Positions 54,001 to 63,000 of a DNA stretch of 64,000 nt are shown here, piece by piece (position 1 is the first letter of the stretch; every line of letters begins with the position of its first letter). Where the stretch lies: positions 811,660 through 875,659 of the forward strand of contig CM000429.1 in assembly GCA_000165345.1 (NCBI GenBank), read 5' to 3'. Made by a program: the position numbers.

Positions 54001-57000
54001 AAATTTATCAACTCTCTTAATTTGGGTAATTTATCAGAATTGAATGATCCAACTGCCTATAACTTACCTATTTTAATGATTTGCCCTCAGCCGAATATGC
54101 CTCGTCATTTCATAATGAAAAGAAACCAAATTGATGCTTCAAGTATGGTTAATCTCGTCTATACTTCGGTAGCTATTGACAATAATATTAGAAATATTTT
54201 AATGCTTAATATTGTTGAAACTGCCATCTTAAAATTATCAGAATTGGCCTCTTTAGACAAAGTTAATCTTACCCTAAAATGGGAGATTAAGAAGCATTAT
54301 ATCCGTCTTAATATTTTAAGTCTGTCCTCAATCAGATATAATGAAAATGGAATTGAACCTATTATCGAATATTCTACCGAAGCTTTAAAACGAATTTATA
54401 ATTTAGGAAATTATATAGAGTTGAAGCAAAAAAGCTTTTTAAATAAGTCAAAACGTATTATTACTATTCGAAGAGATTCGGAGGAAACTAGATTTAATCA
54501 ACTATACCATTCAATCATGATGGGTAAAAAACCATATATGCAGCTTGATTTACTTAAAGAATTTGAATCTATTAATGGAGGAAGCTTTTTTGAATTTGCA
54601 AATCAAGTCAAAAATAGTCTAACTTACATTGTAATTATTTCATCACATCAACAAACAAATAAAAATACAGAAAATGAGATTACTGGGTTTACTAAAGCTG
54701 AAGGATATCCAAATACCTATTAGAATTATTTATGAGTGAAAAATACGATTTCTACTAAACATATATTTTATTTACGTAGTTGAACTATTTACTTTATTTC
54801 TTTACGATAATTGTTAATTCTATTCCTGTTATATCTGATTGATTTTGTATAAATATCAACCTTTCCAATAAATATACTATTTATTAAACTGTAAAGTTGA
54901 AAATTAATTTACCATTTATTTATTAATATTTTTTTAGACTTATTCCAAATTGATTTATTTTTATTTATGAATCATTTCAGAAATAGCAATCCAAAGATAT
55001 CATTTTAATATTCAAATTATTGCCTTAACGATATGGAAATTCAAGTTATATATAATTAAAGTTAGCTAAATACAAAGTTTTCAAGTACTTTTAAAATTAA
55101 AATAATCAAACATAAAAAATTTGGTATTAAATCAACTTGTTAATTAGAAAAAATAATAATAAAGTATCAATAAATTAATGATTCTTATTATATTGGGAAA
55201 TTTCAAATAATTAAATGTTTTGTTTTTATATTTTATTTTATTTATAAATTTATTTCACGCTTAAAAGCTTGAATTCTTTAAATAAATGGAACACCATTAT
55301 GTTCAAAATATTATTAGAATTATTAATATTATCTTAAATTATAAATTTCAATCTAGATGGTATATAAAACAAATTTTCTAGTAAATATTTTGACTATAAG
55401 CTCAGGATTTATTTCTGAGATTAAGTAAATACGAAAGCATTCCTATCAATCCTCCTTTAATTTCATTAATTGAGCATTTATCATTCATTGTATTTATTTA
55501 AAGGTCAACATCCACATAGCTCTTTGAGTTAAATTGAATATTGTTTATCAGAAATTTTTTAATAATATTTAATAATGATTATTTTTAGAAATTATGGAGT
55601 TATCTTTATAGAATGAAAGTTAATTTAATTAATTTTGATTAAATATATTTAGTACTATTATAAAATTAAAAAGGCTTTTATTTTTTTTTATAATAAATTT
55701 GTTAAGTTTATGGTTATAAATTGAGAATGAAGATATTTTAAATTAAATATTTATTAAATGTTGAGAACCTAAGTAGATATTAATTGAAGTAATTAATAGT
55801 ATAAAAAACACGATTTTAATTAATTTAGTTTATAAATACTTTACAGAAAATGTAGCAAAAGTTTGAAGTTACAATAGGCAGTATCTTAAGGATTCTATTG
55901 GTTTATTTTTATGGGTAAATATGTCTGTTAAACAAAAGTTTTACTTTACTTTCTTATTTTAAAATAATTGAACAACTTGAAGTATAATACTATTAGACAA
56001 ATAATTATTTCAATTTTTTTTATGGGTTATGTTATTTCTTTATACCATTATAGCATTTATATTGTCATTCAAATATTAATTTAAATGTTCAATTCATTTA
56101 TTGTTGCTATTTAATACTTTTCACACTGCCATTGATATTAAAAATATTTTAATTATGACTATTAAATGAAGGTTAAAAGAATAGTTCTTAAATTATGTTA
56201 TTATGTATATTTGTAAAATCTACTTAATTTGTCTCTTATCTAATAGAGTATTTACTTTAGAAAAACGTAACTATGAATATTAATCAGGAAATTTCCCTAA
56301 ATTATAATAAATTACTGTATTTCTTTTCCTTTGAAATGTTAAAAGTTATAGTTTTTCAAGACTCATTTAATAGGAATTATTGCAAAAAATTGTTCATATG
56401 CAATATTTTTTTCTAATTTCAGAAAATTCGATATCTAATGAAATTAATTTAACATAGTTTTAGACATACAGTGTAAATATCAATAAGTTACATTCTCGTT
56501 ATTGCCCCTGTGCCGATTGGTTGAGAGTTCCTTGCATTGAATTTAATTAAGAAATATATCGAAGCTTAAATGAATATTTATAAGATAAAAATAGAATATT
56601 TATTTGTTCTTTAGTAGTTTCTCATTAAAAACTCATCTTAAGCAAAAATCAACATATAAGGAATATTAATGGCAAGCAAATACTTGTAAAATTAACTTAC
56701 ATATCAATTCATTAAAATAATGTTAGCAATGGAGACATCCAGCGAAAGGGAAAAACGACTAAGTAAATAGTTATTTATTTTTTTTCAATATAATTTTGTT
56801 TTTTTAGTATATTAGTTTTTATTTGAAATAAATCAAAATCAATTATTACTTTAATTGTATTATTTTGAAAGCTAAATTATGATTATTTTAAAACTATCAT
56901 TGATTAGTCTATTTAAAAATCTCTCCACCTGACATGAATTGGCCGTTATTTATTTAGTTTAAATAGTATTATTTGTAATTACTGAAAATTTATGGACGCC

Positions 57001-60000: not shown

Positions 60001-63000
60001 AATGTGTAGATATATAATTGGATATGCCTTTTCAAATGTTTGTATTAAATTGCAACGTTAATTTAATTTAAATATTTGATATAATTAAGTTAATATAATA
60101 TGCTGTTTTGACAGCAATAATAAATTAATGGAGATATTAATTTAAAAACATGCGTTCAAATTTGGTTGATTACATTAACGTAATTTATTAAATATATGTA
60201 AGAATTTTGTAGAGTTACAATATCACCTAGTAATTTAGTTTCAATAAGTAATTTCTAATATAGAAAATGGGTTTTCTAATGATTTTTTATTATTTTAAAT
60301 TTTTTTTTTTCATTTATATTTAATTTATAGAAAAAAAGTTAGTTCAGAAACTTAATCCATTTACATGATTTATATATTTATTTATTTTTTTTTAAATATA
60401 AGATTATTGAATAAATTTCTGAATTAATTGGATTTTAATAAGTAAAGATATAAAGCTAGAGAAGTACTTTAATAAAATGATTAAAAATTGTATTTTTGAA
60501 TTCCTTTTAAAATAATTTAATATTACAATGTAATTTTGAATGAATATATATGTAAATGGATATATATATGATTATAATAATAACATGATTTATTGCAATT
60601 AAGAATAAAATACTGTTTATTGTATCTTTAATTACAAATAAATTATTTATTCAATTAAATGATTATTTTAAGCCATTTATCTAAGTTAAAATTATAATAT
60701 TTAGGAATTTGATATAAATAATGATATTTGAATAAATTGTTTGAAATGAATAAAAAATAATACTCGTATTAGGTTTTTAATATTTGGTATTATTACAATT
60801 AAAAAGTCATTGTTTCAAATATATATATTATATTATGGTTGAACAAAATAATTGATAAAAACGAGTTTTTCTTTTAAAGATTAACAAAATTTAATAAAAT
60901 GAATATTAATAATAATAGTGGTTTTGAACAAAATAGTATTAGACCTTATGGCTATTTTGTGGTAGAATTCAGTAAAAATAGTTTTTAACTTAAGCTGTTA
61001 TAGTATTGGATTTAAACCGATGTAATACTGGATTGAAACAAATACTGTATGGATGTTTGATTGAAATTCTCAGAGGTCAATGGAAATTAAACAATGTCAA
61101 TGCTGAGAAGATATTTTTAACAGTATCTAATATAAAATTGAAACATTGGTACCAATTAAAAAAATTATCAAAAATTTATTAATTTTTTTTATTAAATTAA
61201 GATTTATGTAATTTTTATATGTAATTTATTGATTTTATTAAAAGGTTGTTCAAAAATCTTTGTATTTTTTTTAAATGAATATTGAAGTTATATATTTGTT
61301 CTGAATTGAGAATATAGGTTAAATTAAATAAAAATATATGGGAAAGTGGTATAATTGTTTAATCATATTAAAAGAATAACATTATTATTTGAAATAGATT
61401 TTTTTGCTCTGATACAAATTTAAATATTAATTAGTGATGAAAATTTAAGATAAAATAAAGTTTATATATTAATTTTTATATTAATAAATTTTTAGATGAA
61501 TCAAGAATTTGTATTTATTATGTAAAATAATTGAGTTATAATAATAATAAATTGTAATTTTAGTAAAATTCTTATTTTCCTTCATTAATGAATTAATAAT
61601 AGTGATAAATATTTAAGACAAATATGATTTACAATAAAAATTAAATCAAATAACAATAAAATTTGTATAACAGTAAAAATTCTAAGATCTACTTTAAATA
61701 GTCTCTTTTTTCTTTCTTTTACGTTTATAATAAATTTGTATTTGTATAATATAGTTACTATTTTGATTTAAGAACTAAAATCAAATTCATGAATAATTTC
61801 AATTAATATATAACAAGACCGACTTCTTCTAGCCGTGACCCTTTTTTGCAAATTCTGCAATTAACAAATATTCTAAGAAAACAGAAAAGTACATGTAGAC
61901 ATTTGAACTTAAATTAAAGAGAATACTAATATCACAAAACTGTATTTTCGACACTCTACATAAACTAAAGTTTTACTTTAAATGATTCCCAACTATTGTC
62001 GAAGCAATTTGTCTTCAATAGCCTCTACTTTGGGGCGGGGTACAAAGAAATAACTTACAATTAATACTCAAGGATACCATTAGTCACTACAAATAGCTTT
62101 ATCAAAATTAATCTATTTAGTTTCATTTATTTCAAGTTTTTGTAATATTCAAACTTGTATTATTTCTGCTTTCGTTTTCTGGAATACTTGTAATAATAAC
62201 AGACTTAGCAATATCAACACGTTCTGTAAGTGACTTTGATGGAAGGACGTTGACTAATAAAGCCTGTGAATCACTTGACATAATGTTGAATACCTGAACA
62301 TTACTTGCTTGCGGGAATATAAAAGAGTTGAGAGGAGTTCGAGATTTTAAAGACTTCTCTGATTGACCGGTAAGAGGTTTCATAGATTTAACTAGTTGTG
62401 ATTCGCTAGTTCTATTAGTAGATAAGGGAACAACTCGACTCAATGAGGTTCTGGTTTCATTGACAAGAGCTTGATTTAGAGATTTTGATCTAGTTTCTTC
62501 TCCAGTGTTACCTAATACGACTGGACCTAATCCCGTAGACCCTAGTCCACGCTCACCTCTATCGGTTTCATCAAGTTGATCAACTAAGCTAAATGAGACA
62601 GGTTTACCATCGTAACCAGTAAGAGAGACGTATCTTTGCCCAATTTTTAATTCATAATCATAATCTTTAATATTGTCGAAAGGAATTCTTAATTCGCCTC
62701 TAAAACCAGCATCAAATATCCCGCCAGGAACAGCCAATCTAAGTGGACTTTTAGAAATAGAAGATCTTCCAACAATAGTATAACTAGAAGGTTCATTATA
62801 ATCATCATAAGCAGCAATCTTAAACCAGTCCTAACAAAACCAGTTTCTCCTGCTTTAATAATCTGATCTTCGATGATGAATAAATCTAACCCCGAGTCCC
62901 CTTTATAATGAATAGTGTGATTGCTATAAAGCTGTTGAGCAATAATAGTTAGTGGTAAAATAAGAAAACGCATCTTATGCCTTAAATAAAGAAGCAAGTA

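What the first reader, a model, noticed from the sequence alone, without database searches (positions are those of the whole stretch)
54724..62131. Two roughly 2.2-2.4 kb ORF-free, extremely AT-rich stretches flank a single gene at the distal end of the window
In 0-54.7 kb, genes are packed with 0.2-1.4 kb spacers. After 54.7 kb there is 2.4 kb (54724-57159) and then 2.2 kb (59935-62131) with no ORF of 60 aa or more in any frame and >80% A+T by eye. They bracket a low-complexity RS-repeat gene and the disrupted dUTPase. This sudden change in gene density and composition suggests a specialised chromosomal region: subtelomere-like, centromere-like, or a block of unannotated ncRNA genes. No telomeric repeat is present in the window.
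Basis: seen in the sequence. Interest (0 to 1): 0.5.

Follow-up and report, generated by a model that had tools for sequence, protein, structure and literature searches.

The report
Gene-poor chromosome end of Cryptosporidium parvum
The two long AT-rich empty stretches are real, but they are ordinary non-coding spacer DNA between the last three genes before the telomere of Cryptosporidium parvum chromosome 1, a region already annotated as telomeric, so the finding is correct but not new.

Summary
Window 54724-57159 (2436 bp, 80.0% A+T) and 59935-62131 (2197 bp, 81.3% A+T) are the two longest ORF-free stretches in the window. The window is the distal end of C. parvum chromosome 1. In other assemblies of the same end, the TTTAGG telomere array starts 43 bp past the window's last base. 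The flanking genes are an insulinase-like peptidase, the SKSR paralog cgd1_3850 and the dUTPase-like cgd1_3860; GenBank already labels the first two as telomeric genes and the literature calls cgd1_3860 the last gene of chromosome 1. So "subtelomere-like" is right. "Centromere-like" is not supported, and "block of ncRNA genes" is mostly wrong. The gaps have no tRNA, Rfam match, repeat, Pfam relic or conserved coding signal. Their open frames are no longer than in shuffled sequence, and they diverge at least as fast as ordinary spacers. The only published transcript I could place in them is the 389-nt lincRNA Cp_lnc_78 (56222-56610, minus strand). Terminal gene content differs between species: C. 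canis ends 84 bp after the insulinase gene, and chipmunk genotype I ends 720 bp after SKSR and carries the dUTPase-like gene at another telomere. The spacers look like relaxed-constraint junction DNA left by reshuffling of chromosome ends. Low interest.

The parts
51628..54723 (+). Insulinase-like peptidase gene (EAK88281.1, 'telomeric gene'; CPATCC_0035420). The identifier cgd1_3840 is my inference from gene numbering only.
   Evidence: Exact protein match and source names. Weak Peptidase_M16_C hit. Syntenic in C. hominis, C. tyzzeri, C. meleagridis, chipmunk genotype I, C. canis and C. felis.
54724..57159 (.). Gap 1: a 2436-bp non-coding spacer with 80.0% A+T. It should hold the insulinase 3' flank, one lincRNA and the SKSR promoter.
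   Evidence: ORF content equals shuffles. (no RNA family). (no repeats). (no protein relics). No protein-coding gene is annotated here in seven assemblies of five species. Orthologous spacers measure 2443, 2407, 2422 and 2804 bp in other species.
56222..56610 (-). Published polyadenylated lincRNA Cp_lnc_78 (CPATCC_0035415), 389 nt.
   Evidence: The sequence from the supplement of PMC7840661 matches the window 100% on the minus strand. Expression is higher in the first three expression columns than in the last two (7.2-7.7 vs 5.5-5.7), which I read as oocyst/sporozoite versus 24-48 h; the column headers were not displayed. Correlation with the flanking genes is 0.86 and 0.80. No unusual folding, z = 0.13. 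No open frame. Conservation is no higher than its surroundings.
57051..57091 (+). Probable SKSR core promoter: palindromic E2F-type site TTTGGCGCCAAA (57051-57062) and CATGCA (57086-57091), about 70-110 bp upstream of the ATG.
   Evidence: Read directly from the sequence. The motif classes are those listed for C. parvum upstream regions in PMC7840661. This block is among the better conserved parts of gap 1. Function is inferred, not shown.
57160..59934 (+). SKSR-family secreted protein gene cgd1_3850 (EAK88280.1, 'SKSR family paralog, telomeric gene'; CPATCC_0035410).
   Evidence: Exact protein match and names. Family membership of cgd1_3850 is stated in PMC12688253.
59935..62131 (.). Gap 2: a 2197-bp non-coding spacer with 81.3% A+T, apparently composite (see the next two parts).
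   Evidence: No gene is annotated here in C. parvum or C. hominis. Identity to C. hominis is 93.6%, below the other spacers at 94.6-96.2%.
59935..60374 (.). Proximal part of gap 2: the SKSR 3' flank, shared with C. meleagridis.
   Evidence: 75.7% identity over 440 bp to the 422 bp that follow SKSR in C. meleagridis. Global identity is 0.753 against 0.41 for shuffles.
61450..62131 (.). Distal part of gap 2: the 3' flank that travels with the dUTPase-like gene.
   Evidence: Chipmunk genotype I locus L014 737-2486 aligns to window 63223-61450 (63.5% over 1851 bp, E = 8e-154). In that species the block lies at a different telomere.
62132..62973 (-). dUTPase-like gene cgd1_3860, the last gene of chromosome 1. 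In C. parvum it is frame-shifted by a 1-nt deletion at about 62824/62823.
   Evidence: Pfam dUTPase hit. Homologs. PMC6532270. The nucleotide alignment shows the deletion in three C. parvum assemblies and an intact frame in C. hominis and chipmunk genotype I.
62974..64000 (.). Third spacer: the dUTPase-like promoter region plus telomere-adjacent sequence. The telomere array starts 43 bp beyond the window's end.
   Evidence: L003 22416 equals window-equivalent 64043. Most of this stretch is absent in C. hominis, where the telomere begins 168 bp from the gene.

Best explanation
The two stretches are long non-coding spacers in the subtelomere at the distal end of Cryptosporidium parvum chromosome 1. 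The order there is insulinase-like gene, 2.4 kb, SKSR gene cgd1_3850, 2.2 kb, dUTPase-like gene cgd1_3860, about 1.07 kb, then (TTTAGG)n.

They are DNA under relaxed constraint. They contain the usual gene-proximal elements: 3' flanks, the SKSR promoter with an E2F-type site, and one short lincRNA. The rest drifts toward very high A+T.

Their unusual length is best explained by the history of this chromosome end. Terminal genes have been gained, lost or exchanged between chromosome ends in different lineages. The spacers are the junction DNA left between successive terminal segments.

Shown here: the position next to the telomere, the absence of any coding or structured-RNA signal, neutral-like or faster divergence with many indels, and different terminal gene content in related species.

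Inferred: that rearrangement of chromosome ends, rather than selection for a function, is what made the spacers long.
For: Position. The window matches the end of CP029780.1 at 99.6%, and the telomere repeats start 43 bp past the window. The ATCC long-read assembly has the same structure. Source names call the insulinase-like and SKSR genes telomeric, and cgd1_3860 is 'the last gene in chromosome 1'.

Non-coding nature. Open frames are no longer than in shuffles. No protein-coding gene is annotated in the gaps in seven assemblies of five species. There is no tblastx signal against the downstream regions of the three more distant species (the unidentified Cryptosporidium L013, C. canis and C. 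felis), which were the only tblastx results inspected. No Pfam domain appears in any of the six frames. tblastn with the window's proteins and the fetched proteins gives no hit.

No structured RNA or repeats.

Relaxed constraint. Gap 1 against chipmunk genotype I shows 64.5% identity at aligned sites, compared with 61.7-69.2% for five ordinary spacers and 78-85% for the four conserved flanking genes and the insulinase gene (SKSR itself is only 66%). Gap 1 has 606 gap columns against 9-54 in the ordinary spacers. Gap 1 and gap 2 against C. hominis show 93.3% and 93.6%, compared with 94.6-96.2% for the other spacers. No conserved islands stand out apart from the SKSR promoter block and a modest one at about 55250-55450. 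There are 15-29-nt indels between C. parvum assemblies.

Dynamic chromosome end. In C. canis the telomere begins 84 bp after the insulinase gene. In chipmunk genotype I it begins 720 bp after SKSR. In C. hominis it begins 168 bp beyond the dUTPase-like gene. In chipmunk genotype I the dUTPase-like gene and about 680 bp of its 3' flank lie at a different telomere. The neighbouring dUTPase-like gene is frame-shifted in C. parvum only, which shows gene decay at this end.

Long A+T-rich spacers recur at the other subtelomere I could read: 2463 bp at 16-29% G+C in L014.
Against: The length of gap 1 is nearly constant (2407-2443 bp) in four species despite 59-145 gap columns in the alignment, and a gene-free stretch of about 3.0 kb follows the insulinase ortholog even in a G+C-richer unidentified species (L013). 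This could reflect a spacing or regulatory constraint that I cannot see in the sequence.

The lincRNA is co-expressed with both neighbours (r = 0.86 and 0.80), so part of gap 1 may be functional.

I had no RNA-seq or chromatin tracks and no whole C. parvum genome. I could not test whether long spacers are statistically concentrated at chromosome ends, or whether the middle of gap 2 (about 60375-61450) has a source elsewhere in the genome.

No interstitial telomere repeats mark the proposed junctions.
Confidence: 0.8

Rival explanations
1. The gaps are a functional regulatory or lncRNA domain. Long, poorly conserved non-coding transcripts, of which Cp_lnc_78 is the annotated tip, or extended control regions would set the stage-specific expression of the telomeric secreted-protein genes.
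For: Cp_lnc_78 lies in gap 1, is polyadenylated, appears stage-regulated and correlates with both neighbours. The length of gap 1 is stable across four species, and a long gene-free stretch follows the insulinase gene in two further species. Published lincRNAs of C. parvum are typically AT-rich.
Against: The lincRNA covers only 16% of gap 1. It shows no extra conservation, no structure signal and no recognised upstream motif. I found no lncRNA listed for gap 2. Both gaps evolve at or above the rate of ordinary spacers and with more indels. The SKSR promoter motifs sit within about 110 bp of the ATG, as in ordinary C. parvum genes.
Confidence: 0.12
2. The gaps are the eroded remains of former subtelomeric genes, pseudogenes decayed beyond recognition. 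This is an origin story that can coexist with the best explanation.
For: The adjacent dUTPase-like gene carries a C. parvum-specific frameshift. The SKSR gene is truncated by a 1-nt insertion in the ATCC assembly. Subtelomeric gene loss is documented between Cryptosporidium species. Each gap is about the size of a gene.
Against: There is no similarity to any window protein, fetched homolog or chipmunk subtelomeric neighbour. No Pfam domain appears in six frames. There is no tblastx signal against the three more distant species inspected. Gap 1 was already gene-free in the common ancestor shared with chipmunk genotype I.
Confidence: 0.06
3. The gaps are centromere-like DNA.
For: High A+T and the absence of genes are reminiscent of Plasmodium centromeres (from my own knowledge). 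Microscopy shows CENH3 staining overlapping telomere staining in C. parvum.
Against: The gaps lie 2-9 kb from the telomere and there are two of them. There is no repeat array. A+T of 80-81% is within the range of short ordinary spacers in the same window, which reach 86%. CUT&RUN reports about 400 dispersed CENH3 sites typified by GA-rich motifs and no regional centromere. Purine runs of 14 nt or more occur in the SKSR coding sequence but not in the gaps.
Confidence: 0.02

Closest known systems
Subtelomeric regions of Cryptosporidium chromosomes, as described in comparative genomics of C. parvum, C. hominis, C. meleagridis and chipmunk genotype I and in the IOWA-ATCC long-read assembly
   Same: The region is adjacent to a TTTAGG telomere. 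It carries members of secreted-protein families (SKSR, insulinase-like). Gene content varies between close species. The genes are fast-evolving: SKSR is 88.7% identical to C. hominis against 94-98% for neighbouring genes.
   Different: This end is simple, with three genes. It lacks the rRNA-linked duplicated block reported for the other end of chromosome 1 and for chromosomes 7 and 8. In the papers I read I saw no comment on the long A+T-rich spacers themselves.
Subtelomeres of Plasmodium falciparum and yeasts (gene-poor telomere-associated sequence plus variant gene families; from my own knowledge)
   Same: Gene density drops toward the telomere, lineage-specific secreted or surface gene families reside there, and there is evidence for exchange between chromosome ends.
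   Different: There are no telomere-associated repeat elements and no tandem arrays. The scale is tiny at about 9 kb. No heterochromatin data were available to me.
C. parvum lincRNAs (33 reported, mostly AT-rich; PMC7840661)
   Same: Cp_lnc_78 in gap 1 is one of these 33.
   Different: It accounts for 389 of the 4633 bp in the two gaps. The rest has no annotated transcript that I could find.
Apicomplexan regional centromeres (Toxoplasma: gene-poor regions of about 15 kb with CENH3 and H3K9me3; Plasmodium: short, extremely AT-rich regions, from my own knowledge)
   Same: Gene-free and A+T-rich.
   Different: The location is terminal, there are two stretches, A+T is not exceptional for spacers of this genome, and C. 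parvum is reported to lack regional centromeres.

Membership tests
Subtelomeric region | Lies within a few kb of a terminal telomere-repeat array | tested here: met
   (TTTAGG)n begins at window-equivalent 64043 in CP029780.1 and at the same place in the ATCC assembly. Gap 2 is 1.9-4.1 kb and gap 1 is 6.9-9.3 kb from it.
Subtelomeric region | Carries members of lineage-specific, secreted multigene families | tested here: met
   SKSR paralog cgd1_3850 and an insulinase-like peptidase, both named 'telomeric gene' by the source.
Subtelomeric region | Gene content and order vary between closely related species | tested here: met
   Terminal structures differ in C. canis, chipmunk genotype I, C. 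hominis and C. parvum. The dUTPase-like block sits at another telomere in chipmunk genotype I.
Subtelomeric region | Lower gene density than the chromosome core | tested here: met
   Coding fraction is 0.39 in the last 9.3 kb against 0.77 in the rest of the window and 75.3% in what I take to be the C. parvum column of the genome-features table.
Subtelomeric region | Sequence blocks shared among different chromosome ends of the same genome | not testable with these tools
   No whole C. parvum genome could be searched. There are no repeats within the window.
Subtelomeric region | Heterochromatin or position-effect marks | not testable with these tools
   No chromatin tracks were available. The supplements of the CUT&RUN preprint are not held.
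Regional centromere | Single internal locus per chromosome bound by CENH3 | tested here: not met
   The position is terminal and there are two stretches. Published CUT&RUN finds dispersed sites only. CENH3 occupancy at these coordinates could not be read.
Regional centromere | Distinct sequence signature (repeat array, or the GA-rich motif type reported for C. parvum CENH3 sites) | tested here: not met
   No arrays. No purine run of 14 nt or more in either gap; this run search is a proxy, as the published motifs themselves were not scanned.
Cluster of ncRNA genes | Matches to known RNA families or tRNA genes | tested here: not met
   ARAGORN found 0 genes. Rfam gave 0 matches at gathering score and 0 at E<=1.
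Cluster of ncRNA genes | Several independent transcripts mapped in the interval | tested here: inconclusive
   One published lincRNA lies in gap 1. None was found for gap 2 in the held part of the supplement. I had no read-level RNA data.
Cluster of ncRNA genes | Conservation or structure above the neutral background | tested here: not met
   Divergence equals or exceeds that of ordinary spacers. The fold z-score of Cp_lnc_78 is 0.13.
Missed protein-coding genes (intron-rich) | Conserved coding signal or an annotated gene model in orthologous DNA | tested here: not met
   No gene model in seven assemblies. No tblastx, Pfam or tblastn signal.

The most novel reading that the evidence does not exclude
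The long A+T-rich spacers are not just passive leftovers. They are the preferred breakpoints at which telomere-linked gene cassettes are exchanged or healed between Cryptosporidium chromosome ends. Examples would be the dUTPase-like gene with its 3' flank, or SKSR. Under this reading the spacers act as a mechanism that drives presence, absence and copy-number variation of secreted virulence-associated families. Consistent observations are that the homology block shared with another telomere of chipmunk genotype I ends inside gap 2 (about 61450), and that the homology shared with C. meleagridis covers only its first 440 bp.
Probability: 0.15. Interest if true: 0.45.

Novelty: already known. Interest (0 to 1): 0.12.

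Why it matters
The region has been annotated as telomeric in GenBank, and its one lincRNA was published in 2021, so the main value of this check is to close the lead. The sudden drop in gene density is the chromosome end, not a centromere and not a hidden gene cluster.

The modest added value is comparative. This chromosome end has a different last gene in different Cryptosporidium species, and one terminal gene sits at another telomere in chipmunk genotype I. This is relevant to how subtelomeric secreted-protein families (SKSR, insulinases) vary between host-adapted lineages.

The preprint on holocentric chromosomes states that C. parvum has no extended intergenic regions. These 2.2-2.4 kb spacers are among the longer ones, but they are small and terminal and do not challenge that picture.

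Tried and rejected
- tRNA scan and Rfam at gathering score and at E<=1: nothing.
- Tandem and dispersed repeat searches: only low-complexity AT noise.
- Interstitial telomere hexamers as scars of old chromosome ends: not enriched.
- Bacterial-type promoter and terminator scan: irrelevant for a eukaryote and not enriched.
- Hidden coding sequence: tblastx against the three more distant species, Pfam on all six frames with stops masked, and tblastn with all window proteins, fetched homologs and chipmunk subtelomeric neighbours. 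All were negative.
- Using Logan contigs as a transcript proxy: rejected. The contigs break at a genomic poly-T tract and carry hairpin-like ends, so they look like genomic assemblies, not RNA.
- Homology of chipmunk genotype I's SKSR-to-telomere spacer with the start of gap 2: none above shuffles.
- RNA structure in Cp_lnc_78: z = 0.13.
- The sequence of Cp_lnc_36 (antisense to the dUTPase-like gene) was not in the held part of the supplement, so I could not tell whether it extends into gap 2.
- Supplement tables of CENH3 windows are not held.
- Structure prediction, the representative-protein search and metagenome scans were not used, because nothing protein-like emerged to feed them.

Full report
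**Observation.** Window 54721-57156 (2436 bp, A+T 0.800) has no stop-free frame of 60 codons. Window 59932-62134 (2203 bp, A+T 0.813) has none of 100 codons; its longest is 62 codons and its longest start-codon ORF is 58 aa. These are the two longest ORF-free stretches in the window. The 16 other spacers measure 301-1579 bp, with a mean of 699 bp and A+T of 0.737. Coding fraction drops from 0.77 before 54.7 kb to 0.39 after it. The published genome-wide mean intergenic distance is 504 bp (PMC7840661), so the gaps are 4.4-4.8 times the mean. The lack of ORFs adds nothing beyond 'non-coding': shuffles of each gap give longest open frames of 64-66 codons on average, against 52 and 62 observed. 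Short spacers elsewhere in the window reach 82-86% A+T, so what is unusual is the length rather than the composition.

**Where the window is.** The 924-aa protein encoded at 57160-59934 is identical to EAK88280.1/XP_628196.1 of Cryptosporidium parvum Iowa II, named 'SKSR family paralog, telomeric gene'. The protein at 51628-54723 is EAK88281.1, 'insulinase-like peptidase, telomeric gene'. The SKSR gene lies at 874,278-877,052 of CP029780.1, an 881,470-bp chromosome record. Window 47160-64000 aligns to the last 16.8 kb of that record at 99.6%. The record continues for another 43 bp and then runs into TTTAGG repeats to its end. The IOWA-ATCC long-read assembly shows the same structure. The literature gives cgd1_3850 as an SKSR family member and cgd1_3860, the dUTPase-like gene at 62132-62973 on the minus strand, as 'the last gene in chromosome 1'. 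Gap 2 therefore lies 1.9-4.1 kb and gap 1 lies 6.9-9.3 kb from the telomere. The window simply stops just short of the array.

**What is inside the gaps.**
- There is no tRNA and no Rfam family at gathering score or at E<=1.
- There is no tandem or dispersed repeat beyond AT-rich low complexity.
- Telomere hexamers are not enriched.
- No protein-coding gene is annotated in either gap in three C. parvum assemblies, nor in C. hominis, C. tyzzeri, C. meleagridis or chipmunk genotype I.
- No Pfam domain appears in any of the six frames with stops masked.
- tblastn with every protein in hand gives no hit.
- tblastx against the three more distant species gives no signal.

The positive features are few:
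- A palindromic E2F-type site TTTGGCGCCAAA (57051-57062) and a CATGCA (57086) lie 70-110 bp upstream of the SKSR ATG. This is the usual compact promoter layout (motif classes).
- One published polyadenylated lincRNA is present. The 389-nt sequence of Cp_lnc_78 (CPATCC_0035415) from the supplement of PMC7840661 matches window 56222-56610 exactly on the minus strand.
- That RNA is more abundant in what I read as the oocyst/sporozoite columns and correlates with both neighbouring genes at r = 0.86 and 0.80. It has no open frame, no folding signal (z = 0.13) and no conservation above its surroundings.
- In the held part of that supplement I found no lincRNA for gap 2. Cp_lnc_36 is antisense to the dUTPase-like gene, but its sequence was not retrievable.

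**Conservation.** Gap 1 is orthologous and of nearly the same length in C. hominis (2443 bp), C. tyzzeri (2407) and C. meleagridis (2422), and is 2804 bp in chipmunk genotype I. It evolves like neutral spacer DNA or faster.
- Against C. hominis it is 93.3% identical, where the other spacers are 94.6-96.2%. Against C. meleagridis it is 83.4% against 84.5-88.7%.
- Against chipmunk genotype I it is 64.5% identical at aligned sites, where five ordinary spacers are 61.7-69.2% and the conserved neighbouring genes are 78-85%. It has 606 gap columns against 9-54.
- Sliding windows show only the SKSR promoter block and a modest island at about 55250-55450.
- Gap 2 is 93.6% identical to C. hominis.
- Indels of 15-29 nt separate C. 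parvum assemblies in both gaps.

**A chromosome end that differs between species.**
- In C. canis the telomere begins 84 bp after the insulinase gene.
- In chipmunk genotype I the order is insulinase, 2.8 kb, SKSR, 720 bp, telomere.
- In C. hominis the dUTPase-like gene is followed by only 168 bp before the telomere. C. parvum has about 1.07 kb there.
- In chipmunk genotype I an intact 274-aa ortholog of the dUTPase-like gene is the first gene at a different telomere (L014). The homology with C. parvum runs from 240 bp upstream of the gene to about 680 bp downstream: L014 737-2486 aligns to window 63223-61450, at 63.5%, E = 8e-154.
- The first 440 bp of gap 2 are homologous to the sequence that follows SKSR in C. 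meleagridis (75.7%).
- Gap 2 therefore looks composite: the SKSR 3' flank, about 1.1 kb of unknown origin, and the 3' flank of a telomere-linked dUTPase-like block.
- The other subtelomere I could read (L014) also has long A+T-rich spacers of 1.1, 1.3 and 2.5 kb. An unidentified G+C-richer Cryptosporidium (L013) has about 3.0 kb without a convincing gene after its insulinase ortholog.

**Interpretation.** The best-supported reading is that these are relaxed-constraint spacers of a small subtelomere. I infer that their length comes from gain, loss and exchange of terminal gene segments rather than from a function of the DNA itself.

I give 0.8 to this reading. The rivals are:
- 0.12 to a genuine regulatory or lncRNA role for part of gap 1. 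The arguments for it are the stable length and the co-expressed lincRNA.
- 0.06 to eroded pseudogenes. This is compatible as an origin. The neighbouring dUTPase-like gene carries a C. parvum-specific 1-nt deletion.
- 0.02 to a centromere-like role. The position is terminal, there are no arrays, and the gaps hold no purine run of 14 nt or more, used here as a proxy for the reported motif type. The CENH3 CUT&RUN preprint reports about 400 dispersed sites with GA-rich motifs and no regional centromere.

**Comparison with what is known, and novelty.** Every defining feature of a subtelomere that I could test is met: telomere adjacency, secreted multigene families, variation between species, and low gene density. 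Sharing of blocks among ends of the same genome and chromatin state could not be tested. The genes were labelled telomeric by their depositors, the subtelomeric nature of SKSR and insulinase genes is a standard theme of Cryptosporidium comparative genomics, and the lincRNA is published. The finding is therefore already known in substance. The long spacers themselves are, as far as I saw, not discussed, and nothing in them calls for a new kind of element.

**Limits.** I had no read-level RNA or chromatin data and no searchable whole Cryptosporidium genome. The enrichment of long spacers at chromosome ends rests on this end, one chipmunk genotype I end and published averages. The gene identifier cgd1_3840 for the insulinase gene is inferred from numbering only. 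The C. tyzzeri end contains a 2.9-kb run of N, and the C. meleagridis record stops 422 bp after SKSR, so their terminal structures are uncertain.

Noticed in passing
window 62132-62973 (minus strand), deletion at about 62824/62823: The dUTPase-like gene cgd1_3860 has a 1-nt deletion (GGT-TTAAG versus GGTATTAAG) in all three C. parvum assemblies. The frame is intact in C. hominis and chipmunk genotype I. Public gene models bridge the shift with different 'introns' (244 aa and 268 aa products), one of which removes conserved dUTPase sequence. It is probably a C. parvum-specific pseudogene.
   Followed up: yes
L014 979-1803 (chipmunk genotype I, SCFC02000028.1): An intact 274-aa ortholog of cgd1_3860 (65% identity) is the first gene next to a telomere on a different contig. 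The 2019 comparative paper listed this gene as absent from that species.
   Followed up: partly
window 63250-64000: Identity of the window to two other C. parvum assemblies, which agree with each other here, falls progressively from about 99% to 72% toward the window's end. This suggests either a low-quality sequence end in the assembly the window came from, or real telomere-adjacent hypervariability.
   Followed up: partly
window about 59206 (within SKSR, 57160-59934): The IOWA-ATCC assembly has a 1-nt insertion (A) here that truncates the SKSR model to 685 aa, against 924 aa elsewhere. It is either a long-read homopolymer error or a real frameshift polymorphism of the kind reported for SKSR1/cgd1_140.
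   Followed up: partly
window 58519-59064 (inside the SKSR coding sequence): There are several purine-only GA-rich runs of 14-27 nt. This is the motif type reported for CENH3-bound sites in C. parvum. They lie in the gene, not in the gaps.
   Followed up: no
L011 13100-13406 (C. canis) and L007 21344-21598 (C. hominis): Telomere repeats begin only 84 bp after the insulinase stop codon in C. canis and 168 bp from the dUTPase-like start codon in C. hominis. Chromosome ends can therefore sit almost directly on genes.
   Followed up: partly
L005 17745-20607 and 20608-22710 (C. tyzzeri): A 2.9-kb run of N starts inside the SKSR serine/arginine repeat. The 2.1 kb between it and the telomere is not homologous to the C. 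parvum end and carries a different small gene. This is either a scaffolding problem or another terminal exchange.
   Followed up: partly
L013 (Logan SRR31860986), 13100-16991: This is an unidentified Cryptosporidium with about 44% G+C, whose insulinase ortholog is 70% identical. The gene is followed by about 3.0 kb without a convincing gene and then a 306-aa secreted protein with a short RS stretch on the opposite strand.
   Followed up: no
window about 51500 onward (upstream of the insulinase gene): A long genomic poly-T tract lies here. Two independent short-read assemblies (L004, L009) break at it, which shows those contigs are genomic rather than transcripts.
   Followed up: yes
window 50277 region, minus strand: The published antisense lncRNA Cp_lnc_77 (CPATCC_0035443) begins here, antisense to the 995-aa gene at 47447-50434. 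Cp_lnc_36 is listed as antisense to the dUTPase-like gene.
   Followed up: no
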